From positions 1 through 15,233 of the IMG/VR virus record IMGVR_UViG_2585427789_000028: a stretch of DNA of 15,233 nt. One strand, given 5' to 3'. Source of the stretch: a virus (lineage: Duplodnaviria > Heunggongvirae > Uroviricota > Caudoviricetes). This document shows, one piece after another, positions 7,480 through 15,233 of this stretch (position 1 is the stretch's first letter; every line of letters begins with the position of its first letter). A program made the position numbers and the translations under genes. The notes beneath the pieces were generated by a model that did no database searches, had not been told where the DNA came from, and saw nothing but the letters and a program-made list of their open reading frames with translations.

Positions 7480-8001
7480 TTACCTAAAAAACCACATATG
7501 GATATCACATACGACCCAGTACATAACCGGATGCCGCCACGGGAATCTTTCGGGACCACCAGGATATAAACTTTTTTCCTTGCTGTACCGGTGAAACTCC
7601 GCCATCACATCGTCAATGGTGACGCCAAGAACCATCTTGCTGTCTTTGCACCACTTGATGAATTGCCCAGGCGACGGCCAGAACGGAGATTCACTGGCGC
7701 GGGCGTGGCGCATACCAGCAGAAACTTGTTCACGGGTTCGGATCCCCCCTTCGGCAAACGCAGCAATCCACTGCTGTTTTGCAGCAACTTCCTGCTCTGG
7801 CGTCTTCAGGTTGGTTACCACTGCCGCCGGAAACAGTTGTTTCAGCTGTTTGAAAAGGGTATCAACAAGCCTCTCTGCTGACATGTTCACCACGTTGTCA
7901 TTGTTGGTGTACTGATGCTCATAACCTGACATGCGAGAAAGGGCTTCTCCGTCACGGTTTTGTATCGCGGTAAAAACGTTGTTCACAAGAAATCCTCCCA
8001 T
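7480..8001 (-). CDS. Lambda P-like replication protein (helicase loader), apparently C-terminally truncated
   Basis: Translation FPAAVVTNLK...WIAAFAEGGIRTREQVSAGMRHARASESPFWPSPGQFIKWCKDS aligns by eye with the lambda P N-terminal half (FPASLANRDQ...WVLAFRENGITTMEQVNAGMRVARRQNRPFLPSPGQFVAWCREE). The ORF ends about 80 residues short of lambda P (233 aa) just before the tailspike. Start codon uncertain. Confidence 0.65.
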   Translation of the reverse strand: MGGFLVNNVFTAIQNRDGEALSRMSGYEHQYTNNDNVVNMSAERLVDTLFKQLKQLFPAAVVTNLKTPEQEVAAKQQWIAAFAEGGIRTREQVSAGMRHARASESPFWPSPGQFIKWCKDSKMVLGVTIDDVMAEFHRYSKEKSLYPGGPERFPWRHPVMYWVVCDIHMWFFR

Positions 8002-8798
8002 GCTTCAGGGCTGTTCCAGTGCGGAACGTTGTTATCAGGTAATGTTGATTGCTTCTGTCTGCTAATCTGCAGCCGCCTTGCCAGCTTCTGCTCCCACTGT
8101 GCCTGATGGTATGCCTTACCCTCAGCCATCCAGTAAATTCTGAACTCTGCAAGTTCCTGTGCCGTTGGCAGACTGTCCAGGTAGATCCCCTGCAATGAGC
8201 TTTTCCGAAGAAAGTCATCTGATGGCCGCCATTGTTCATGCATGACAAATTTGCCTAATTGCCCTGGCCCACCAGGAGGAACAAAGTTATTCATCACGGC
8301 GTTGTTTGCGCCGGGGTCATGATGCACAGAATCCCCGTTTTTTGTCCTGCTCTCCCTCTCTTGGTTAAATGACTGGTTATATGACTGGTTCTGGATCCCG
8401 TTTTTGGGATCATTCAACATCCCGTTTTTGGGATCATTCAACATCCCGTTTTTGGGTATATTCCCGTTTTCGGTAACATTACCGTTTTCGGGTTCATTGC
8501 CCCCCTCCCGGTTGCCTTTAATGTTCCCGTTTTTGGTTATATTAAGAGAGAAAACCCGCACTCTTTTTGTCGCTCCCTTTCTCTCTCCGGTATCTGAAAT
8601 AAGCCCCATTTTCATGAGCGATATAAGCCCGGCCTGCACGGTTTTTTTATTCAGGCAAGTGTCTTTAACGAGGCGTTCTATGCTGGGGTAGCAGAGGTTA
8701 TATTCATCGGCTCTGTCAGCCATCGAGAGCAGTATGAGCTTTAATGATGAGCTACCTGGATCTGTCTCCCAGGCCCAATCTGTTGCATGTCTGCTCAT
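7983..8798 (-). CDS. O-like replication initiator protein containing internal iterons
   Basis: 271-aa ORF with GGAG SD, upstream of and overlapping the P-like gene. N-terminal HTH-like region. The central part is encoded by tandem DNA repeats (protein NGN/PKNG repeats), as in lambda O, which contains ori. Confidence 0.7.
   Translation of the reverse strand: MSRHATDWAWETDPGSSSLKLILLSMADRADEYNLCYPSIERLVKDTCLNKKTVQAGLISLMKMGLISDTGERKGATKRVRVFSLNITKNGNIKGNREGGNEPENGNVTENGNIPKNGMLNDPKNGMLNDPKNGIQNQSYNQSFNQERESRTKNGDSVHHDPGANNAVMNNFVPPGGPGQLGKFVMHEQWRPSDDFLRKSSLQGIYLDSLPTAQELAEFRIYWMAEGKAYHQAQWEQKLARRLQISRQKQSTLPDNNVPHWNSPEAWEDFL
8395..8542. repeat. Iteron array, putative phage replication origin inside the O-like gene
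   Basis: ATCCCGTTTTTGGGATCATTCAAC occurs twice exactly (8395-8418, 8419-8442), followed by degenerate copies with core CCGTTTT(T)GG through about 8542. An additional 10-bp direct repeat ATGACTGGTT lies at 8369-8378 and 8381-8390. Confidence 0.7.
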
Positions 8799-8813
8799 GA
8801 TTAATCTCCGCTA

Positions 8814-9014
8814 TCAGCTTGAGTGTTGTGGGGAGGAATTAATCATGATCTGCTTAATCTCTGCCCTGATGCGACGGTTTGATTCCATGGTGCACTCAAC
8901 ACAGTGTCCGTTGTAAACCCAGCGTTCACTGTCATGTCCATGCTTACATGGTTTTCCGGTGTAGTAGCGTTTAAGTCCGCGCTTTGCGGCATCAATACGT
9001 GTAATGATTTCCAT
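8814..9014 (-). CDS. Small Cys/His-rich (zinc-ribbon-like) protein between the Cro-like and O-like genes; function unknown
   Basis: ORF track gives 8814..9077. Start chosen at the internal ATG (MEIITRID...), the only one with a weak SD. Contains C-x2-H-x-H ... C-x2-C (GKPCKHGH...GHCVEC). Occupies the cII position. Confidence 0.45.
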   Translation of the reverse strand: MEIITRIDAAKRGLKRYYTGKPCKHGHDSERWVYNGHCVECTMESNRRIRAEIKQIMINSSPQHSS

Positions 9015-9117
9015 GGTAAGCCCTGTTATTAGTATTGGGATTACGGTCATTTTGTGCTGACACAAAAAAAAGATCAACCATATTTGGTTTTTTATTACCT
9101 TTGAGGTACGAATAGAT

Positions 9118-9143
9118 ATGAAAAGACCGCCGGGTGGCGGTCT
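9118..9143 (-). terminator. Putative intrinsic terminator downstream of the Cro-like gene (tR1-like position)
   Basis: On the minus strand: AGACCGCC-ACCC-GGCGGTCT followed by TTTTCATAT. An 8-bp GC-rich stem with a short T-run. Confidence 0.45.
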
Positions 9144-9164
9144 ACAGAGGGTTGTGGCTGGATA

Positions 9165-9395
9165 TCATGAGTAGAAGAAGTATGCCAGTTCTGCTTTTGA
9201 GCGCAGCCATTGTCTTGTTTTACAGGCTTTAAAAAGCCCATTCATCAATACCTTACCTGGCATTTTGCGCTTACCTGTTAAGTGAGTCTGGATATAGTGA
9301 CTCGTCGTTCCGGCTTCCTGTGCGAAGGCTTCACGCTCATCCGGAGTAAGTGCAAGCCAGTGCTTTTTGAAATCGAAATGTCCGTTATCGCTCAT
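9165..9395 (-). CDS. Cro-like / YdaS-type small HTH regulator
   Basis: 76-aa ORF divergent from the repressor gene. Translation LALTPDEREAFAQEAGTTSHYIQTHLTGKRKM resembles Cro/YdaS-family HTH proteins. Confidence 0.6.
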   Translation of the reverse strand: MSDNGHFDFKKHWLALTPDEREAFAQEAGTTSHYIQTHLTGKRKMPGKVLMNGLFKACKTRQWLRSKAELAYFFYS

Positions 9396-9549
9396 AGCTA
9401 TTGCCTGATATTTATTTCAGATAATAAATATTCACCCATAAGGTAACAAAAATCAAGGATAGTTACCTATGGGGTGCATTTACCTGTTGGGTAATATTGC
9501 TTTAAATTGAATCATCTACTGATTCATATATGAGGCGATTTTCCAGAAA
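9396..9549. promoter_or_regulatory. Divergent promoter/operator region of the immunity switch with repeated TTACC-N4-GGGT(AAT) palindromes
   Basis: Sites at 9463-9475 (TTACC-TATG-GGGT) and 9480-9495 (TTACC-TGTT-GGGTAAT), plus AGGTAAC at 9441-9447, between divergent Cro-like and repressor genes. Confidence 0.55.
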
Positions 9550-10134
9550 ATGAAAAGTATCCAGGACGTCCGCAGGCAAAATCTCAACGACTTGATCGAC
9601 CGTGAATTCAATGGTGTTCAGACGCGGATGGCTGAAAAACTTGGAACTCAGGCAAATCTGGTAAACCGCTGGGCTCTTGGCAAGAAGGTTATCGGCGACC
9701 AGGTTGCACGAAAAATTGAAGCTGCCGCCAATAAACCCCGTAACTGGCTTGATATTGATCGCTCGCTTTCTCAGGAGGGTTTTCAGCCTGTCGGCCCGAG
9801 TGATATAGGTCAGCTGGCGGCTCACAACCTGGAACGCTGGATGAGCGAAAGCCGCGACCTTTCAACGCAGGGAAAACTACACCGCGCATCCGGCGTCGCC
9901 CAGGTGACAATCAGCCGCCTGTTAAACAATGAGGTCAGCGTTTCCATTTCCACCCTGGAGAATGTTGCATCCGCATTCGGGCGTCACGGCTATGAATTAC
10001 TGATTCACCCGCACGACCCTGCGACCATCAACTATGATCGCTCGCGCTACGCATTGTTACCCGAAACCGAGAAAGCAAAGATCGAAAGTTACATTGAATT
10101 TGTCATCAACCAGAACGAAAAAAACAAACAATAA
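9550..10134 (+). CDS. Prophage repressor candidate with two HTH (XRE-type) domains and no recognisable LexA/S24 peptidase domain
   Basis: 194 aa. HTH-like segments GVQTRMAEKLGTQANLVNRW and GKLHRASGVAQVTISRLLNNE. Sits in the cI position, has its own terminator, and is flanked on both sides by operator-like palindromes. Confidence 0.65.
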   Translation: MKSIQDVRRQNLNDLIDREFNGVQTRMAEKLGTQANLVNRWALGKKVIGDQVARKIEAAANKPRNWLDIDRSLSQEGFQPVGPSDIGQLAAHNLERWMSESRDLSTQGKLHRASGVAQVTISRLLNNEVSVSISTLENVASAFGRHGYELLIHPHDPATINYDRSRYALLPETEKAKIESYIEFVINQNEKNKQ

Positions 10135-10155
10135 AATCATATTTTTCAGTAAGTA

Positions 10156-10179
10156 AGCCGCCTTCTGGCGGCTTTTTTA
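10156..10179 (+). terminator. Rho-independent terminator after the repressor gene
   Basis: AGCCGCC-TTCT-GGCGGCT followed by TTTTTT. Confidence 0.65.
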
Positions 10180-10187
10180 TTGCCTAT

Positions 10188-10287
10188 TCGATTACCTAAT
10201 GGGTAATTTTTTTAACTCATATCTATTGACACCAAACCAGATACGCATAATTATTACCTCAACGGTAACAGACCGAGGTAACAAGTT
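10188..10287 (+). promoter_or_regulatory. Early (PL-like) promoter with flanking operator palindromes
   Basis: TTGACA at 10226-10231, 17-nt spacer, AATTAT at 10249-10254. Operator-like sites ATTACC-TAAT-GGGTAAT (10191-10207) and TTACC-TCAAC-GGTAAC (10255-10270), plus AGGTAAC at 10276-10282. Confidence 0.5.
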
Positions 10288-10440
10288 ATGCAGTGGAAAA
10301 TCATCAACGGTTGGTACTGCGTTACTGCATGCGGATTCATGAGCTGGAAGTTCCGCACCTTACAGGAAGGCATTAAGTGGGCTTTCGTCAGCAAAGAAGC
10401 TCGCGATGTGGCCAACGATAACGAGATATGGGAGGGCTGA
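10288..10440 (+). CDS. Small protein (50 aa), first gene of the early operon; function unknown
   Basis: ATG at 10288 with GAGGT 8 nt upstream; stop TGA at 10438-10440. Translates MQWKIINGWYCVTACGFMSWKFRTLQEGIKWAFVSKEARDVANDNEIWEG. Not in the supplied ORF track (below its length cutoff). Confidence 0.4.
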   Translation: MQWKIINGWYCVTACGFMSWKFRTLQEGIKWAFVSKEARDVANDNEIWEG

Positions 10441-10442
10441 TA

Positions 10443-10742
10443 ATGAACGTTAATCAGCAGAAAAATCTTCAAAAAATCATGCTGGCATTCGACAAGGACT
10501 ACCGCCTGTCAGAACAGCTATATGACCGACAAGTTGAACTGATTGAGAGTATCCGGCTTCATCAACTGGCATCAACTTTCGACGTTGTAACAGTTAAAGG
10601 CGTTCGCCAGGAAGTACTGGAGGCCGCTAAAGACAGCCCTGAGTTCGAAGAACTAATGGATGCCTACCGGCGCGAGGCAATGGCAATTATCGCCCGCTGG
10701 GATCTGGCTGATCAGATTGATGGGCAGAGGGACGCGGCATGA
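10443..10742 (+). CDS. Hypothetical early protein (99 aa) immediately upstream of the recombination genes
   Basis: Start chosen at the ATG with GGAGGG SD (MNVNQQKNL...). Stop overlaps the exonuclease start (ATGA). Confidence 0.55.
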   Translation: MNVNQQKNLQKIMLAFDKDYRLSEQLYDRQVELIESIRLHQLASTFDVVTVKGVRQEVLEAAKDSPEFEELMDAYRREAMAIIARWDLADQIDGQRDAA

Positions 10743-11560
10743 ATCCGGGAATTTATTTCGATATCAGCAACGAGGACTACCACGCCGGTGACGGCGTGAG
10801 TAAGTCGCAGCTAGATATGGTGGCTAAGAACCCTGCCCTTCTGAAATGGGTGAAGGCTGCTCCGGAAGACGAAGAGAAGAAGTCTGCACTGGACATGGGT
10901 ACTGCTCTGCACTGTCTGCTTCTGGAACCTGGAGAGTTTGACAAACGCTTCATCGTTTCACCGAAATTCGATCGTCGGACAAAACAAGGTAAAGCTGACG
11001 AAGAGGCATTTATTCGTGATGTAGCGGATATGGGGATTTCGGTACTTGATGCAGAGCAGTGGCGAAAACTGGAGCTGATGCGTGATAGCGCAATGGCTCA
11101 CCCGGCGGCACGCTGGATGTTGGAAGCACCTGGTTACTGCGAAGCATCAATGTACTGGAACGATGAAGATACGGGTGAGTTGTGCCGAATTCGTCCAGAC
11201 AAATGGCTGAAAGAGCACAACGTGATCGTCGACGTGAAAAAGGTTGCAGATATGGACCGTTTTGCACGCCACATCGAGGAGTTCCGCTACCACGTGCAGG
11301 ACGCAATGTACCGCGAAGGCGCAATGAGGGTTACTGGTCAGCCACATGGTTTTTTCTTTCTTGCCGTGAGCGAAAGCATTGATTGTGGTCGGTATCCGGT
11401 ACGCGTGTTCGAGCTGGATGCGCCGGATGTCGATGCCGGGCACGCTCTGTTCCGCCGGGATCTGAATACCTATCACGAATGCCGCATCAACGATGAATGG
11501 GGCGGAGTGGAAATTATTAAACGCCCTGACTGGGCACGTAAACAGGATATGTACGTATGA
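10739..11560 (+). CDS. PD-(D/E)XK-family recombination exonuclease (RecE-like nuclease domain)
   Basis: 273 aa. Contains IRPD...IVDVKK consistent with a PD-(D/E)xK active site. Translationally coupled to, and directly upstream of, the annealing-protein gene. Confidence 0.7.
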   Translation: MNPGIYFDISNEDYHAGDGVSKSQLDMVAKNPALLKWVKAAPEDEEKKSALDMGTALHCLLLEPGEFDKRFIVSPKFDRRTKQGKADEEAFIRDVADMGISVLDAEQWRKLELMRDSAMAHPAARWMLEAPGYCEASMYWNDEDTGELCRIRPDKWLKEHNVIVDVKKVADMDRFARHIEEFRYHVQDAMYREGAMRVTGQPHGFFFLAVSESIDCGRYPVRVFELDAPDVDAGHALFRRDLNTYHECRINDEWGGVEIIKRPDWARKQDMYV

Positions 11561-12438
11561 GCAATGATATCGCAATCACATCACAACCAGGCGCAACTGT
11601 AGGCACTGCTGCGGCAATCTTCAGCCCCGAGGGCATGAATCAACTGGTGCGTTTCGCGGAGTTGATGTCACAAAGCAAAGCGACTGTACCGAAACATCTT
11701 GAAGGCAAACCTGCCGATTGCCTGGCGGTGACCATGCAGGCGGCACAGTGGGGAATGAACCCTTTCGCCGTGGCGCAGAAAACGCATGTGGTAAACGGAA
11801 CGTTAGGCTACGAAGCACAGTTGGTAAACGCGGTCGTATCCTCTTCCAGCCTGCTGGCGACACGCCTGAATTATCGCTGGAGCGGTGACTGGTCGAATGT
11901 TAACGGCAAAACAGATAAATCACCGAATCTGACGGTAACTGTGTCAGCAGTTCTTAAAGGAGAAGCAGAACCACGTGAGCTTACCATCAGTATGGCGCAA
12001 GCAGGAGTGCGTAACTCTCCATTGTGGGAACAGGATCCGCGCCAGCAACTTGCCTATCTTTGCACGAAACGATGGGCTCGCCTGCACGCTCCTGATGTAC
12101 TTCTCGGTGTTTACACCCCTGACGAATTACAGGAAACGGCACCGCGCGTTGAGCGAGACATTACTCCGCAAATGACTACGGCTGCGGGAATGAACAGTCT
12201 GATCAACGCTAAATCAGTGAAAAAGCCTGATGAGCAAACGCGTAAAGCGGATAGCCGTGAGCCAGAAGAAATGCTGATGGCCTTTACCAGCGCAGCGATG
12301 AATTACAGCACTGTCTCCGAACTGGATAAGGCTTACAAATACATTGCACAAAAACTTTCAGATGATGACGAACTGCTGGCAAAAGCCACCGACGTTTACA
12401 GCGTTCGTCGGGAAGAATTAAACGAAACATCTATGTAA
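11557..12438 (+). CDS. Single-strand annealing protein of the RecT/Red-beta superfamily
   Basis: 293 aa. Segments MQAAQWGMNPFAVAQK and SPLWEQDPRQQLAYLCTKRWARL resemble lambda Bet (ANQYGLNPWTKE, GPWQSHPKRMLRHKAMIQCARL) as recalled from memory. ATGA overlap with the nuclease gene. Confidence 0.8.
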   Translation: MSNDIAITSQPGATVGTAAAIFSPEGMNQLVRFAELMSQSKATVPKHLEGKPADCLAVTMQAAQWGMNPFAVAQKTHVVNGTLGYEAQLVNAVVSSSSLLATRLNYRWSGDWSNVNGKTDKSPNLTVTVSAVLKGEAEPRELTISMAQAGVRNSPLWEQDPRQQLAYLCTKRWARLHAPDVLLGVYTPDELQETAPRVERDITPQMTTAAGMNSLINAKSVKKPDEQTRKADSREPEEMLMAFTSAAMNYSTVSELDKAYKYIAQKLSDDDELLAKATDVYSVRREELNETSM

Positions 12439-12487
12439 CCACCACCGCGGCGCCACGCGCGCCGCACTGCAACCAAGAGAGGTATTT

Positions 12488-12736
12488 ATGAAAGGTGCAT
12501 TAGGTAAGAAGGAACTCCTGGCGGTGGTGCCACTGTCATGGAGCACTATCGACCGTATGGAGCGCGCAGGGGAATTTCCTAAACGCTGGTATATCACCGA
12601 TAAACGCTGCGCATGGAACCGTGATGAAGTTGAGCGTTGGCTTGATGAACGTCAGGCAGCAAGCCCGGCAGAGTTCCAGGGTAAAAAACCTCCTGTTCAG
12701 CAACGTGTATATCGTCCTGTGAGCAACGCGGCATGA
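12488..12736 (+). CDS. AlpA-family small DNA-binding protein (excisionase or transcriptional regulator)
   Basis: 82 aa with GAGG SD. Pattern LLAVVPLSWSTIDRMERAGEFPKRWYI...W..DEVERWL matches the AlpA/phage-excisionase HTH family. Confidence 0.7.
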   Translation: MKGALGKKELLAVVPLSWSTIDRMERAGEFPKRWYITDKRCAWNRDEVERWLDERQAASPAEFQGKKPPVQQRVYRPVSNAA

Positions 12737-12849
12737 GTGTGCTGCTAAGGCACTGGAGCAAATGGTCAGGATGGTACTTATTCCTGGCCTCTGTTTCAGC
12801 ATGGCTTTATCTGCTGGCATTAATTTTCAGAGAGGGTTGGATTAAGTGA
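12733..12849 (+). CDS. Small hydrophobic peptide (38 aa, single predicted TM helix, Trp-rich), translationally coupled to the AlpA-like gene
   Basis: ATG overlaps the AlpA-like stop (ATGA). Translates MSVLLRHWSKWSGWYLFLASVSAWLYLLALIFREGWIK. Stop overlaps the GTG start of the next ORF. Not in the ORF track (below cutoff). Confidence 0.35.
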   Translation: MSVLLRHWSKWSGWYLFLASVSAWLYLLALIFREGWIK

Positions 12850-13145
12850 GAAAGTTAAGCCGACTTGAAAAATATCACATGAACAAGGTTTCAATGCGCA
12901 GCCCTTCAAAGGTTGTTGCCGTTACTCCTGCGGCGATAGAGATCGAAAAACGCGCGATTGAAAGAGAGAAAAAAGGGCAGTTCCGCATTGCCGCCCACCT
13001 TTGGCTTCAGTGTATGGATGTTGCTTCTGGTGATGTTGAACGTGCAAGGATCGCGGTTCGCAGGGACCAATGTATCACAAAAGGTAACGGCCTTCGCCGT
13101 GGCGACTATAGCGGCATAGGATGTTGTGGGGTGGTTTATGACTAA
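12846..13145 (+). CDS. Hypothetical small protein (99 aa), possibly a PerC-like regulator
   Basis: GTG start overlapping the upstream stop (alternative ATG at 12880). The segment EKKGQFRIAAHLWLQCMDVASGDVERARIAVRRDQC loosely resembles PerC/Pch-family regulators from memory; unverified. Confidence 0.45.
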   Translation: MRKLSRLEKYHMNKVSMRSPSKVVAVTPAAIEIEKRAIEREKKGQFRIAAHLWLQCMDVASGDVERARIAVRRDQCITKGNGLRRGDYSGIGCCGVVYD

Positions 13146-13788
13146 GAAATACACACTAATCTATGCAGATCCACCCTGGGCATACCGGGACAAAGCCACA
13201 GATGGTAATCGCGGTGCCGGTTTTAAATATCCGGTTATGAGTGTGCTGGATATCTGCCGCCTTCCTGTGTGGGATTTGGCCGGTGAAAACTGTCTGTTGG
13301 CCATGTGGTGGGTGCCAACACAACCACTCGAAGCACTAAAAGTTGTTGAAGCCTGGGGATTCCGTCTGATGACCATGAAGGGCTTCACGTGGATAAAATG
13401 TGGTAGTCGACAACCAGATAAACTGGTTATGGGGATGGGACACATGACTCGCGCCAACAGTGAAGATTGCCTGTTTGCGGTAAAGGGAAAACTACCTCCG
13501 CGCATTAATGCAGGTATCGTTCAGTCATTTACCGCACCGCGGCTTGAGCATTCAAGAAAACCAGATGTCGTTCGTGAAAAACTTGTGCAATTGTTAGGCG
13601 ATGTTTCTCGCATTGAACTGTTCGCCAGACAGTCGTCTCATGGCTTCGATGTTTGGGGTAATCAGTGCGAAGACCCGGCAGTGCAACTACACCCAGGATA
13701 CGCGTTGGATATTGCCGGATTAACAAATGCATTCAGCAATGCTCCGCTGTCACCAACAGACAACCAGGGGCGGGAGCGTGCAGCATGA
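13138..13788 (+). CDS. N6-adenine DNA methyltransferase, MT-A70-like, with no adjacent restriction endonuclease in the window
   Basis: DPPW motif (LIYADPPWAY) near the N-terminus, typical of adenine-N6 methyltransferases. Start ATG at 13138 overlaps the upstream stop (ATGACTAA); the ORF track's 13126 would be a GTG start. Confidence 0.8.
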   Translation: MTKKYTLIYADPPWAYRDKATDGNRGAGFKYPVMSVLDICRLPVWDLAGENCLLAMWWVPTQPLEALKVVEAWGFRLMTMKGFTWIKCGSRQPDKLVMGMGHMTRANSEDCLFAVKGKLPPRINAGIVQSFTAPRLEHSRKPDVVREKLVQLLGDVSRIELFARQSSHGFDVWGNQCEDPAVQLHPGYALDIAGLTNAFSNAPLSPTDNQGRERAA

Positions 13789-13979
13789 ACAGGGCATCAC
13801 CAGCAGATTTAAGGAAATGCCTTGAAACTGCAAACATGCTTGCACACAGCGGGATCAGGTTTGTTCCAATTCCCGCTGTCACTGATGCTGAATTTGCAAC
13901 ACTGTCAGCAATATTCACAGATAAAATTGAATCACTGGCAGCAGAAGCCGAGATGGAAGAAAATCAGCAGAACTATTAA
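13785..13979 (+). CDS. Hypothetical small protein (64 aa), translationally coupled to the methyltransferase
   Basis: ATG at 13785 overlaps the methyltransferase TGA (ATGA). Stop at 13977-13979, 3 nt from the convergent integrase stop. Confidence 0.45.
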   Translation: MNRASPADLRKCLETANMLAHSGIRFVPIPAVTDAEFATLSAIFTDKIESLAAEAEMEENQQNY

Positions 13980-13982
13980 ACG

Positions 13983-15233
13983 TTATTCCCCCGCCATCCA
14001 CTTCTCAAACTTCGACGGGGAGAACGGAATCAGATCCGTATGCTCCCCGTTAATCCAAGAATCAATCATATCGGCCCACTGCTGCAACATGTAGGCGCGC
14101 TGTCTGGCGTATTCCGCTTTGTTATATACGGCGCGCACACCTTTCTGCTCATGTGCCAGAGCCTTTTCAATCCAGTCTGAAGGATAACCAGCCTCATGCA
14201 ACAACGTACTGGCTGTACGGCGCATATCGTGTACGGTGAAGTCCTGAATATGCTCACCATCTTCATTTATTATTTTCACCGTTCTGTCGATCAGAGAGTT
14301 CAGCGCGGCATTAGATAATGGCTTCCGGAAATTGTAACGACCAGGAACCAGATATTCACTTCCACCAGCGCACATCTGCAACCCGACCAATATATCCTGA
14401 ACCTGTTTAGGCAGGTAAATAACATGCGCCCGGCTTCCCTTCATGCGGTCTGAAGGAATTGTCCATGTCCATTTTTTAAAATCTATTTCATCCCACGTTG
14501 CATTGGTGAATTCGCCCTTACGAACCATAGTGATAAGCACCAGTTTTAAAGCCATTTTCATAGTGCCCATAGCACCAATGGCATCCAACGTGCGGAAGAA
14601 CAGGCCAATTTCTTCTGGTGTCAGTGTTCGCTCTCGTGGTTTAAATATGGCGATAGACGAAGGTTTAATGTCAGCCGCAGGATTAAACAAACCATGACCA
14701 CGGTCATTGGCGTGACGGTATACGCTGCTGATGATCTCCCTGGCCTGTACTGCTGTTGCCCGACCACCGCGTTCGACAATCCGGTCACACAAATCACGAA
14801 CCATCGATGTGGTAATTTCAGCCATCATTTTGTTGCCAAGAACCGGAAGTATGTCACGGTCGATCACCGCCTGCTTCATTGCGCGGGTACTGTCAGCCAG
14901 GATGACGTGTTTCATATAACTGTCGGTATGTACCGCAAACGTCTCGGCACCACGAATTTTTTTGATACCGTCACGTTTAGCCGCAGCCGGCGACTGGCCT
15001 GCTTTAAGCAGCTTCTTTGCAGCAATCAGTTCTTCTCGCGCTTCTGCCAGGCTGATACCGTCACGCCCATACTGCCCGATTACCAGTGTTTCGCGGCGAC
15101 CGTTGATACGGTAGTCATAGCGAAACGAGACCGTGCCTGACGTAAGCACAGCTACATACAGCCCGTCACGATCGGAGACCTTGTACAGTTTGTCCTGCGG
15201 CTTGAGGTTTTTTAATTTTGTATCGGTAAGCAC
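13983..15233 (-). CDS. Tyrosine integrase, P4-like family (partial: N-terminus at or beyond the window edge)
   Basis: 416-aa ORF reaching the window end. N-terminal arm-binding-like sequence LTDTKLKNLKPQDKLYKVSDRDGLYVAVL; C-terminal catalytic region with HDMRRT...LAHE...Y typical of tyrosine recombinases. Confidence 0.9.
   Translation of the reverse strand: MLTDTKLKNLKPQDKLYKVSDRDGLYVAVLTSGTVSFRYDYRINGRRETLVIGQYGRDGISLAEAREELIAAKKLLKAGQSPAAAKRDGIKKIRGAETFAVHTDSYMKHVILADSTRAMKQAVIDRDILPVLGNKMMAEITTSMVRDLCDRIVERGGRATAVQAREIISSVYRHANDRGHGLFNPAADIKPSSIAIFKPRERTLTPEEIGLFFRTLDAIGAMGTMKMALKLVLITMVRKGEFTNATWDEIDFKKWTWTIPSDRMKGSRAHVIYLPKQVQDILVGLQMCAGGSEYLVPGRYNFRKPLSNAALNSLIDRTVKIINEDGEHIQDFTVHDMRRTASTLLHEAGYPSDWIEKALAHEQKGVRAVYNKAEYARQRAYMLQQWADMIDSWINGEHTDLIPFSPSKFEKWMAGE

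What the first reader, a model, noticed from the sequence alone, without database searches (positions are those of the whole stretch)
8369..8542. Iteron-type replication origin embedded in the O-like gene
Two exact 24-bp direct repeats plus several degenerate copies (core CCGTTTTTGG) and an additional 10-bp direct-repeat pair lie inside the coding sequence of the O-like protein, mirroring lambda, where ori lies within O. The repeats also impose an NGN/PKNG peptide repeat on the protein.
Basis: partly seen in the sequence, partly recalled or inferred. Interest (0 to 1): 0.4.

Follow-up and report, generated by a model that had tools for sequence, protein, structure and literature searches.

The report
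Probable phage replication origin repeats
The repeats are real and are most likely the initiator-binding sites of the replication origin of a phiV10-type phage, lying inside the initiator gene as in phage lambda; here they sit in a broken prophage that probably can no longer use them.

Summary
Six copies of CCGTTTTYGG lie at 8398-8536 (0.06 expected by chance), including two exact 24-bp units. A 12-bp repeat (TGGTTAWATGAC) follows at 8362-8385. All lie inside gene 7983-8798(-).

The window is a phiV10-like (Uetakevirus) prophage remnant in an E. coli chromosome. The gene is phiV10 gp43, a winged-helix HTH_36 N-domain plus a DnaT-like C-domain. It is not a sequence member of the lambda O family. 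A lambda-P-type loader gene follows it.

Comparative evidence points to a DNA-level cis element rather than a peptide repeat:
- The same dyad-symmetric motif follows this N-domain in about 80 diverse proteobacterial loci.
- 39% of the copies are in other reading frames and encode different peptides.
- The spacing (17/18 and 24 bp) is conserved.
- A second conserved 12-mer element follows the array.
- The array is absent from relatives with a different N-domain.
- Edwardsiella phage GF-2 joins this N-domain and array to a lambda-O C-domain.

Best reading: an iteron origin analogous to ori-lambda. No replication or binding test was possible. No strongly AT-rich unwinding region is present. The P gene here is truncated (161 of 261 residues), so the origin is probably a relic. 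It is a new member of a known kind, of modest interest.

The parts
7983..8798 (-). Replication initiator gene (271 aa), the homolog of phiV10 gp43. It has an N-terminal winged-helix domain (aa 1-88, Pfam HTH_36), a disordered linker (aa 89-190) whose first part is encoded by the repeats, and a DnaT-like C-terminal domain (aa 184-252).
   Evidence: Pfam. PHROG 1032 'replication initiation protein', E 5e-108. PDB DnaT C-domain matches, E 2e-20. AlphaFold2 pLDDT about 80-88 for aa 1-88 and below 50 for aa 89-190. 97.5% identical to phiV10 gp43.
8524..8547 (-). Iteron 1, the most degenerate copy (coding strand TAACCAAAAACGGGAAC). It lies 45 bp upstream of iteron 2.
   Evidence: The only polymorphic core position among relatives is in this copy.
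8479..8502 (-). Iteron 2 (GAACCCGAAAACGGTAAT).
8461..8484 (-). Iteron 3 (GTTACCGAAAACGGGAAT), 18 bp from iteron 2.
8443..8466 (-). Iteron 4 (ATACCCAAAAACGGGATG), 18 bp from iteron 3.
8419..8442 (-). Iteron 5, an exact 24-bp unit (core GATCCCAAAAACGGGATG) that contains a GATC site.
8394..8418 (-). Iteron 6, an exact 24-bp unit. Its core is the perfect 18-bp palindrome GATCCCAAAAACGGGATC (8394-8411) with two GATC sites. It is the last copy before the 12-mer element.
   Evidence: In homologs the last copy is also the most symmetric.
8362..8393 (-). Second repeat element: three units of about 12 bp (coding strand AGAACCAGTCAT / ATAACCAGTCAT / TTAACCAAGAGA; TGGTT at 8362, 8374 and 8386 on the plus strand). 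It is a candidate unwinding or helicase-entry element.
   Evidence: TRF. The equivalent AGAAYCnnnCAn tandem units follow the last iteron in 61 of 77 homologous loci, against 0.007 expected per 300 nt. Unit number varies between relatives (2 here, 3 in phiV10). The function is inferred.
8330..8361 (-). Purine-rich tract on the coding strand (AAGAGAGGGAGAGCAGGACAAAAAACGGGGA). It contains a degenerate iteron half-site (8334-8345). In position it matches the A-rich tract of homologs and the AT-rich segment of ori-lambda, but it is only about 55% A+T.
   Evidence: (repeat family D5).
7480..8001 (-). Truncated lambda-P-type helicase loader gene. It is 95% identical to phiV10 gp44 over the aligned part and matches through residue 161 of 261, then runs into 7 unrelated codons and a stop.
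   Evidence: Pfam PF06992, profile positions 1-127 of 162. BLASTP against phiV10 gp44. RefSeq marks it as a pseudogene.
7426..7503 (.). Deletion junction. Homology to the phiV10 replication region stops at about 7503 and the sequence continues into the upstream region of the tailspike gene (4351-7425, minus strand).
   Evidence: The junction occurs in 1 of 5426 complete E. coli genomes.

Best explanation
The repeat array is the replication origin of a phiV10-type temperate phage. It is an iteron origin embedded in the initiator gene.

Shown by tool results:
- Six dyad-symmetric sites of 16-18 bp (consensus GATCCC-AAAAAC-GGGATC) lie in the segment that encodes the disordered linker just after the initiator's N-terminal winged-helix domain.
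- They are followed by three 12-bp units and a purine-rich tract.
- This arrangement is conserved with that N-domain in many distantly related phages and prophages, whatever the C-terminal domain or the downstream helicase or loader gene.

Inferred by analogy with ori-lambda and with plasmid iteron origins:
1. Dimers of the initiator bind the iterons through the winged helix.
2. The phased sites and their A-tracts wrap or bend the DNA into an O-some-like complex.
3. This destabilises the adjacent 12-mer and purine-rich segment.
4. The DnaT-like C-domain engages the exposed single strand and/or the P-DnaB complex. In E. coli DnaT this domain binds ssDNA and acts upstream of DnaB loading.
5. The lambda-P-type loader delivers the host DnaB helicase.

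In this window the loader gene is cut short and most of the prophage is deleted. The origin is therefore most likely an intact but unused relic that could fire only with a helper phage of the same specificity.
For: 1. The repeats are far beyond chance: 6 cores against 0.06 expected.

2. The constraint is on DNA, not peptide.
- The same CCCAAAAACGG motif occurs in other reading frames. GF-2 copy 1 encodes TQKR, and Vibrio phage H20 and PPompW have similar cases.
- 39% of 325 motif instances in 77 loci are outside the majority frame.
- The encoded residues vary (PKNG, PENG, PKIG, PIYG, PKFG, TENG) while CC-N6-GG with an A-rich spacer is kept.

3. Dyad symmetry extends beyond the core, and the flanks change together between lineages. 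The outer flank pair is complementary in 192 of 325 instances, against 124 +/- 7 in shuffles (maximum 148). The middle pair is complementary in 220, against 175 +/- 6.

4. The array co-occurs with the N-domain.
- Motif density is 9.6 per kb in the 260 nt after the domain against 0.51 per kb elsewhere in the loci.
- Without assuming a motif, 60 of 78 loci have at least 4 copies of some 10-mer there, against 1 of 688 control windows.
- Relatives that share only the DnaT-like C-domain (Tyrion, SPN1S, TL-2011b, Rac YdaU) lack the array.

5. The module is portable.
- All 73 initiators scanned have HTH_36. Their C-domains are DnaT (7), Phg_2220_C (5), DnaA_N (2) or unassigned.
- Downstream genes are lambda-P (16), DnaB-type, IstB-type or others.
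- GF-2 gp62 combines this N-domain and array with a C-half 62% identical to lambda O residues 156-299, followed by a P gene.

6. The architecture is conserved. Spacing peaks at 17 and 24 bp, and the pattern ..17,17,24,24 followed by 12-mers recurs in Vibrio, Acinetobacter and E. coli. The 12-mer element is present in 61 of 77 loci.

7. Within the phiV10 group, 1 of 60 core positions is polymorphic against 17 of 128 non-core array positions. The window's array is the commonest variant, identical in 14 of 80 relatives.

8. The encoded peptide is predicted to be a disordered linker, so it can tolerate DNA-imposed sequence.

9. The gene context is a lambdoid early-right operon: repressor, a cro-like gene, a terminator, a small ORF, the initiator, then P.
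Against: - There is no direct evidence of binding or of replication. I found no paper that describes this origin, and the phiV10 and epsilon15 genome papers were not available.
- There is no clearly AT-rich unwinding segment. The flank at 8350-8394 is 57-63% A+T, only about the 75th-85th percentile of duplex instability in the window. The least stable 30-mer in the gene lies at iteron 1, at 8517.
- The 18-bp spacings are not helically phased.
- Unit number is very variable among close relatives: 4-9 cores in IMG/VR contigs, and proteins of 263-311 aa. This shows that slippage acts on the array and that exact copy number is not critical.
- The polymorphism contrast could partly reflect concerted evolution.
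- Related sequences share ancestry, so the co-occurrence counts are not independent events.
Confidence: 0.8

Rival explanations
1. The repeats are initiator-binding sites whose main role is regulatory, with initiation taking place at another site. Possible roles are autoregulation of the replication operon, titration or handcuffing for copy control, or a roadblock to transcription.
For: Iterons have such control roles in plasmids; this is established knowledge (for example, the iteron control discussed in PMC3401445, listed). The adjacent flank is not strongly AT-rich. Copy number is very variable.
Against: No other cluster of the motif exists anywhere in the 15-kb window. The array has the same position as ori-lambda relative to the initiator domains, and in GF-2 it replaces lambda's iterons exactly. 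A second conserved repeat element and an A/purine-rich tract follow the array, as expected for an origin.
Confidence: 0.1
2. The repeats are selected at the protein level. On this view an NDPKNGML-type peptide repeat forms a functional linker or an interaction motif, for example for P or for host proteins, and the DNA repeat is only its by-product.
For: The array is in frame and changes by multiples of 3 (24, 18, 12 bp). Most copies share one reading frame. G134 and P131 are conserved in small alignments.
Against: 39% of motif instances are in other reading frames and encode unrelated peptides such as TQKR, PTTE and ECTQKR. Residues within the unit change radically (K/E/I; N/I/Y/F) while the DNA pattern is kept. 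The sites are dyad-symmetric with co-varying flanks, a property of DNA targets and not of peptides. The segment is predicted to be disordered. In-frame changes are expected anyway, because frameshifts would destroy the C-domain.
Confidence: 0.05
3. The array is a neutral, slippage-generated minisatellite in a tolerant linker and has no function.
For: Unit number varies even between the window and its closest genome, AST205, which has one 24-bp unit fewer. The two 24-bp units are exact copies.
Against: The same core sequence, symmetry, spacing and downstream 12-mers are kept from Enterobacteriaceae to Vibrio, Acinetobacter, Sphingomonadales and Desulfovibrionaceae relatives whose N-domains are only 41-67% identical. 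Neutral minisatellites do not persist in that way.
Confidence: 0.03

Closest known systems
ori-lambda within gene O of phage lambda (four 18-bp iterons, an AT-rich region, and the O-P-DnaB pathway)
   Same: - The iterons lie in the part of the initiator gene that encodes the linker just after the N-terminal DNA-binding domain. Lambda's Pfam domain covers aa 22-115 and its iterons lie at codons about 117-145. Here the domain covers aa 1-88 and the iterons lie at codons 88-136.
- The sites are dyad-symmetric with C-rich and G-rich arms around an AAAAC centre: lambda ATCCCTCAAAACGAGGGAT against GATCCCAAAAACGGGATC here.
- Spacing is on a similar scale: lambda 20, 24, 23 bp; here 18, 18, 24, 24 bp.
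- Lambda's iterons also fall in different reading frames.
- A P-type loader gene follows immediately.

   Different: - The initiator is in a different Pfam family (PF13730, not PF04492), and the profile comparison with lambda O is not significant.
- The C-domain is DnaT-like, not the lambda O C-domain.
- The central spacer is 6 bp rather than 9 bp.
- There are six sites rather than four.
- There is no 40-bp AT-rich block. Tandem 12-mers and a G-containing purine tract take its place.
- Function has not been tested.
DopC/DopE, domesticated O/P-like gene pair of Cellvibrionales and Oceanospirillales (Brezellec et al. 2017, PMC5509034)
   Same: The two-gene architecture is identical: an HTH_36 N-domain plus a DnaT C-terminal motif, followed by a lambda-P-family protein (compared).
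   Different: The authors found no iteron-like sequences in dopC, and the genes are resident chromosomal genes. Here the gene pair is in a prophage and carries a full array. This suggests that the DnaT-type C-domain was already present in phage initiators before domestication. That is my inference; I did not compare any DopC sequence.
Edwardsiella phage GF-2 gp62/gp63 ('replication initiation O-like' + P)
   Same: The N-domain type is the same (50% identity over aa 1-139). The iteron type is the same (AATGATCCCAAAATTGGGAT, three copies at 24-bp spacing plus degenerate copies). The downstream AGAATC units are the same, and a P gene follows.
   Different: The C-terminal half is of the lambda-O type, 62% identical to lambda O residues 156-299, rather than DnaT-like.
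Iteron origins of theta plasmids with winged-helix Rep proteins (RepA/RepE/pi type)
   Same: Both have a winged-helix initiator, tandem directly repeated binding sites of about 17-24 bp, and an adjacent element with short tandem repeats where unwinding is expected.
   Different: Plasmid iterons are usually intergenic and asymmetric, and are bound by Rep monomers. Here the sites are inside the coding sequence and are dyad-symmetric. The fold search gave only generic winged-helix matches (E > 0.01), among them staphylococcal RepA N-domain entries 4pql and 5kbj.

Membership tests
Lambdoid iteron origin embedded in the initiator gene (ori-lambda type) | At least 3-4 tandem direct repeats of about 18-24 bp with internal dyad symmetry, inside the initiator gene just after its DNA-binding domain | tested here: met
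   There are six copies at 8394-8547, starting at codon 88 right after the winged-helix domain. Dyad symmetry was tested.
Lambdoid iteron origin embedded in the initiator gene (ori-lambda type) | An AT-rich, easily unwound segment next to the iterons | tested here: inconclusive
   The flank at 8350-8394 is 57-63% A+T, at the 75th-85th percentile of duplex instability. Conserved tandem 12-mers and a purine-rich tract occupy the position.
Lambdoid iteron origin embedded in the initiator gene (ori-lambda type) | Iteron specificity goes with the initiator's N-terminal domain, as in modular exchange among lambdoid phages | tested here: met
   The array is present with this N-domain in diverse loci. 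It is absent from relatives with other N-domains but the same C-domain. The GF-2 chimera with the lambda O C-domain is shown.
Lambdoid iteron origin embedded in the initiator gene (ori-lambda type) | A helicase-loader gene (lambda P type) immediately downstream | tested here: met
   PF06992, E 1e-46. However, the gene is truncated in this window, with 161 of 261 residues.
Lambdoid iteron origin embedded in the initiator gene (ori-lambda type) | The initiator binds the repeats, and the segment supports initiator- and loader-dependent replication | not testable with these tools
   This needs EMSA or footprinting and a replication assay. I found no published test.
Lambda O protein family (Pfam PF04492 Phage_rep_O N-domain plus the O-type C-domain, PF09524) | Significant match to PF04492 in the N-domain | tested here: not met
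   The window protein matches PF13730 and PF17948 only. Lambda O matches PF04492 at 6e-36. BLASTP between the two is not significant. hhalign gives a probability of 6.5%. Remote homology is claimed through HHpred in PMC5509034.
Lambda O protein family (Pfam PF04492 Phage_rep_O N-domain plus the O-type C-domain, PF09524) | An O-type C-terminal (P-binding) domain | tested here: not met
   The C-domain is DnaT-like (PF17948, E 2e-15; PDB 4ou6/2ru8/9zbt, E about 1e-19 to 2e-20).
E. coli primosomal protein DnaT (the name given in many annotations) | Full-length DnaT architecture and a chromosomal replication-restart role | tested here: not met
   Only the C-terminal domain matches (query aa 180-265 to DnaT aa 85-170). 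The N-terminus is an HTH_36 winged helix and the gene is in a prophage replication module.
phiV10 gp43 family / PHROG 1032 replication initiation protein | Full-length sequence match and conserved gene neighbourhood | tested here: met
   PHROG 1032, E 5e-108 over aa 1-269. 97.5% identity to phiV10 gp43 with the same neighbours.

The most novel reading that the evidence does not exclude
The window carries one copy of a portable, three-part origin cassette that has not been described, as far as the papers I could search show. The three parts are an HTH_36 winged-helix N-domain, dyad-symmetric CCC-A6-GGG iterons in a conserved 17/24-bp pattern, and tandem AGAAYC 12-mers that stand in for a classical AT-rich unwinding element.

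The cassette has been shuffled among phages of Gamma-, Beta- and Alphaproteobacteria and Desulfovibrionaceae. It is combined with at least three kinds of C-domain (DnaT-like, lambda-O-like, DnaA_N-like) and several helicase or loader partners.

Its DnaT-C/P version would be the phage ancestor of the domesticated DopC/DopE pair, which then lost the iterons.
Probability: 0.45. Interest if true: 0.45.

Novelty: new member of a known kind. Interest (0 to 1): 0.3.

Why it matters
If confirmed, the finding gives phiV10 and other Uetakevirus phages, and a wide set of prophages that use the same N-domain, a defined origin of replication. These include phages used for O157 reporter and typing work.

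It would also provide a sequence rule (HTH_36 domain, then CCC-A6-GGG iterons, then AGAAYC 12-mers) for annotating origins in metagenomic phages.

It adds a natural example of how initiator DNA-binding modules and their target sites move together between replication systems. It also bears on the origin of the DopC/DopE helicase-loading pair.

The principle itself, an origin inside the initiator gene, has been textbook knowledge since lambda. The gain is therefore incremental.

Tried and rejected
- RNA element: an Rfam scan of 7400-9700 found nothing.
- Terminator: the two 'terminator-like' hairpins on the plus strand at 8405-8448 are just neighbouring iteron half-sites pairing with each other. 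They lie antisense to the gene, and I regard them as a by-product.
- Direct homology to lambda O: BLASTP and hhalign were not significant.
- Fold search: the AlphaFold model gave only generic winged-helix hits, all with E > 0.01, so it places the N-domain no closer than 'winged helix'.
- Strong AT-rich unwinding element: none was found.
- Other motif copies: a search for further iteron copies elsewhere in the window, such as operator-like sites near the promoter, found none.
- Literature: five searches for a description of this origin found none. The phiV10 and epsilon15 genome papers are not held, so prior mention there cannot be excluded.
- Homolog search with the N-domain alone: this returned mostly truncated or frameshifted fragments and was of little use for building a deep alignment.
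- Own iterons in relatives with other N-domains: Tyrion, SPN1S, TL-2011b and Rac showed only weak two-copy repeats, so I could not say where their origins lie.
Full report
**Where the window comes from**

The window is a piece of E. coli chromosome that carries a degraded phiV10-like (Uetakevirus) prophage.
- Positions 7503-15233 match phage phiV10 and its relatives at about 95-98% identity.
- The window is almost identical to the chromosome of E. coli strain AST205, with the prophage between yfgI and guaA.
- The gene that holds the repeats, 7983-8798 on the minus strand (271 aa), is the homolog of phiV10 gp43. It is annotated 'putative primosomal protein / replication initiation protein'.

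**Checking the observation**

- Two exact 24-bp units, ATCCCGTTTTTGGGATCATTCAAC, lie at 8395-8418 and 8419-8442, with a third partial unit after them.
- The core CCGTTTTYGG occurs six times, at 8398, 8422, 8446, 8464, 8482 and 8527. All copies are on one strand and none occurs elsewhere in the window. Dinucleotide-preserving shuffles give a mean of 0.06, and none of 200 reaches six.
- Start-to-start spacings are 24, 24, 18, 18 and 45 bp.
A third TGGTT unit begins at 8386.
- On the coding strand the units read ...CCCAAAAACGGG... and encode NITKNGNI, NEPENGNV, NVTENGNI, NIPKNGML, NDPKNGML and NDPKNGIQ.
- The last copy is a perfect 18-bp palindrome, GATCCCAAAAACGGGATC, at 8394-8411.

**The protein**

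- Pfam finds an HTH_36 winged-helix domain (aa 18-67) and a DnaT C-terminal domain (aa 184-252). It finds no match to the lambda O family, PF04492. Lambda O itself matches PF04492 at 6e-36.
- The C-domain matches solved E. coli DnaT C-domain structures at about 1e-19 to 2e-20.
- PHROG 1032, 'replication initiation protein', matches over the full length at 5e-108. The N-domain alone also hits several 'replication initiation O-like' PHROGs.
- An AlphaFold2 model gives a confident winged helix for aa 1-88 (pLDDT about 80-88) and no confident structure for aa 89-190 (pLDDT below 50). That low-confidence stretch includes the whole part encoded by the repeats.
- Fold search returns only generic winged-helix proteins, all with E > 0.01.
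- BLASTP and hhalign against lambda O are not significant. A published HHpred analysis does assign HTH_36 to the lambda O N-terminus (PMC5509034).
- 'O-like' is therefore right as a functional analogy and perhaps as remote homology, but the protein is not a sequence member of the O family.
- The next gene, 7480-8001 on the minus strand, is a lambda-P-family loader.

**Is the repeat a DNA element or a peptide repeat?**

Five lines of evidence favour DNA.

1. *The motif follows the N-domain in distant phages.* Homologs of the N-domain in Edwardsiella phage GF-2, Vibrio phage H20, Acinetobacter phage AP22 and the E. coli PPompW prophage all carry the same kind of repeat directly after the domain. 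Examples are AATGATCCCAAAATTGGGAT, CCCGAAAACGGTAC and GAACCCAAAAACGG.

2. *The reading frame is not fixed.* In several of these phages one copy of the same DNA motif lies in another frame and encodes unrelated residues, for example TQKR instead of PKNG. Within the majority frame the residues change radically (K/E/I and N/I/Y/F) while the CC-(A-rich 6-mer)-GG pattern stays.

3. *The pattern holds in a broad sample.* I examined 80 loci from one genome per species. They include Enterobacterales, Vibrio, Pseudoalteromonas, Marinomonas, Acinetobacter, Sphingomonadales, Polaromonas and Desulfovibrionaceae, with N-domains 41-87% identical to the query.
   - A strict motif occurs at 9.6 per kb in the 260 nt after the domain, against 0.51 per kb elsewhere in the same loci.
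   - Loci that scored zero carry a variant motif, such as AGTCCCAACAATGGGAC in Acinetobacter.
   - In a test that assumes no motif, 60 of 78 loci have at least four copies of some 10-mer (one mismatch allowed) in that 260-nt stretch. Only 1 of 688 control windows does.
   - Of 325 motif instances, 39% are outside the majority reading frame.

4. *The sites are dyad-symmetric beyond the CC/GG core, and the flanks change together between lineages.* Arm pairs include ATCCC/GGGAT, GTCCC/GGGAC, CACCC/GGGTG and CCCCC/GGGGG. The outer flank pair is complementary in 192 of 325 instances, against 124 +/- 7 in shuffles (maximum 148). The middle pair is complementary in 220, against 175 +/- 6. This is what a binding site for a protein dimer looks like, and a peptide repeat has no reason to produce it.

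5. *The architecture is conserved.* Spacings peak at 17 and 24 bp. The order '...17, 17, 24, 24' recurs in Vibrio, Acinetobacter and E. coli, and the window has 18, 18, 24, 24.

**A second conserved element**

- After the last iteron, nearly all homologs have two or three tandem units of about 12-13 bp of the form AGAAYCnnnCAn, followed by an A-rich or purine-rich tract.
- A tandem GAAYC pair at this spacing occurs in 61 of 77 loci, against 0.007 expected per 300 nt of background.
- The window's 12-mers at 8362-8393 are this element.
- These units also fall in different frames in different lineages.
- I take the element, with the purine-rich tract at 8330-8361, as the candidate site of unwinding or helicase entry. 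This is inference.

The segment is not strongly AT-rich.
- It is 57-63% A+T, at about the 75th-85th percentile of duplex instability in the window.
- The least stable 30-mer in the gene lies at iteron 1, starting at 8517.
- This is the clearest difference from ori-lambda and the weakest point of the origin reading.

**Modularity**

- Relatives that share only the DnaT-like C-domain have other N-domains and lack the array. These are Enterobacter phage Tyrion, Salmonella phage SPN1S, E. coli phage TL-2011b and Rac YdaU.
- Conversely, all 73 initiators with this N-domain match HTH_36, but their C-domains differ: DnaT in 7, Phg_2220_C (the lambda-O-type C-terminus) in 5, DnaA_N in 2, and unassigned in the rest.
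- Their downstream genes are lambda-P (16), DnaB-type helicases, IstB/DnaC-type ATPases and others.
- The most telling case is GF-2 gp62. It has the phiV10-type N-domain and repeats, then a C-terminal half 62% identical to lambda O residues 156-299, followed by a P gene.
- In GF-2 the module 'N-domain plus repeats' stands exactly where lambda has 'O N-domain plus iterons'. This is the classical lambdoid pattern in which origin specificity travels with the initiator's N-terminus.

**Comparison with ori-lambda**

| Feature | ori-lambda | This window |
|---|---|---|
| DNA-binding domain | aa 22-115 | aa 1-88 |
| Position of the iterons | just after the domain | codon 88 onward, just after the domain |
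| Site sequence | ATCCCTCAAAACGAGGGAT | GATCCCAAAAACGGGATC |
| Spacing (bp) | 20, 24, 23 | 18, 18, 24, 24 |
| Reading frames of the sites | three different frames | one frame here, others in homologs |

The two sites look alike: C-rich and G-rich arms around an AAAAC centre, with a shorter spacer here. I did not test whether this reflects common descent.

**Variation among close relatives**

- In 80 IMG/VR contigs whose N-domains are at least 99% identical there are 42 array variants with 4-9 cores. They differ by whole 24-, 18- or 12-bp units.
- The window's array is the commonest variant, identical in 14 of the 80.
- E. coli proteins of this family range from 263 to 311 aa for the same reason.
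- AST205 has one 24-bp unit fewer than the window.
- Among 59 arrays of equal length, 1 of 60 core positions is polymorphic, against 17 of 128 other array positions.
- So slippage changes unit number freely, while the core sequence is kept.

**State of the element in this window**

- The P-like gene matches phiV10 gp44 only through residue 161 of 261. It then runs into 7 unrelated codons and a stop.
- Homology to the phiV10 replication region ends at about 7503, and the sequence continues into the upstream region of the tailspike gene.
- Only one of 5426 complete E. coli genomes has this junction. RefSeq marks the P gene there as a pseudogene.
- The deletion removes the rest of P and, by the phiV10 gene order, everything between P and the tailspike gene.
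- The iterons and the initiator gene are intact, but the replicon is almost certainly dead unless a helper phage supplies P.

**Likely mechanism**

What is shown: the sites, their symmetry, their conservation together with the N-domain, and the domain architecture of the protein.

What is inferred by analogy with lambda O, P and DnaB and with plasmid iteron origins:
1. Initiator dimers bind the six sites through the winged helix.
2. They assemble a bent nucleoprotein complex.
3. The complex opens the adjacent 12-mer and purine-rich segment.
4. The DnaT-like C-domain binds the exposed single strand and/or the P-DnaB complex.
5. P loads the host DnaB helicase.

**Known or new?**

- The phiV10 record annotates no origin in this region.
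- Five literature searches found no description of these iterons. The original phiV10 and epsilon15 papers were not available.
- The closest published relative of the gene pair is DopC/DopE, a domesticated pair with the same HTH_36 + DnaT-C / P architecture. Its authors found no iterons in dopC. The prophage version here has them.
- The principle that a lambdoid origin lies inside the initiator gene is long established. I therefore class this as a new member of a known kind, with modest interest.

**Verdict**

- Confidence that this is the phage origin is about 0.8.

Noticed in passing
window 4043-4292: About 32 tandem copies of the 8-bp unit GCACAGCA lie in two blocks separated by CTGTGATAA. 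They cover the 3' end of the acyltransferase gene (oac-like, 3268-4179 on the plus strand) and the DNA just after its stop. The unit length is not a multiple of 3, so a change in copy number shifts the reading frame of the protein's tail. The BLAST pieces against AST205 overlap in this region (query 4152-4181 appears in both), so the copy number may differ. Four copies in a row occur in only 4 IMG/VR contigs.
   Followed up: partly
window 7426-7503: This is a prophage deletion junction. The P gene is cut after residue 161 of 261 and joined to the upstream region of the tailspike gene. The junction occurs in 1 of 5426 complete E. coli genomes (strain AST205). The remnant keeps the lysis genes, acyltransferase, tailspike, replication and immunity region, recombination genes and integrase.
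   Followed up: yes
window 8395-8442, compared with L171 (AST205) at about 10290-10330: The window has one more 24-bp iteron unit than the otherwise near-identical AST205 chromosome (271-aa against 263-aa protein). Unit number has therefore changed, or been assembled differently, even within this dead prophage lineage.
   Followed up: yes
window 8405-8424 and 8429-8448 (plus strand): The right arm of one iteron and the left arm of the next form a 6-bp hairpin followed by a T run. The scanner scores these as terminator-like sites antisense to the initiator gene. They are probably a by-product of the dyad-symmetric iterons.
   Followed up: no
window 8394, 8408, 8432: Three GATC (Dam) sites lie within 40 bp, all inside iterons 5 and 6. 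The window as a whole has 48 GATC sites, against about 60 expected from its length alone. Whether methylation affects initiator binding is unknown.
   Followed up: no
proteins P0001-P0036 and alignment A4: Many database entries for this initiator are fragments of 47-143 aa that stop within or just after the repeat region. Some read the array in another frame, for example the repeated ECTQKRVF in P0014. This suggests that the array often breaks short-read assemblies or gene calls, or that such genes are frameshifted.
   Followed up: no
window 9124-9143 (minus strand) and 9421-9449 (minus strand): A rho-independent terminator lies between the cro-like gene (9165-9395) and the small ORF upstream of the initiator. 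It is also annotated in phiV10. A promoter-like site lies upstream of the cro-like gene. Transcription into the origin region would therefore have to pass a terminator, as it does at lambda tR1.
   Followed up: no
L104-L106 (Marinomonas loci): Marinomonas belongs to an order reported to carry the domesticated DopC/DopE pair, yet these loci have full arrays (AATACCCCCAAAATAGGGGGT, 5-6 copies). I did not determine whether they are prophage copies or dopC itself.
   Followed up: no
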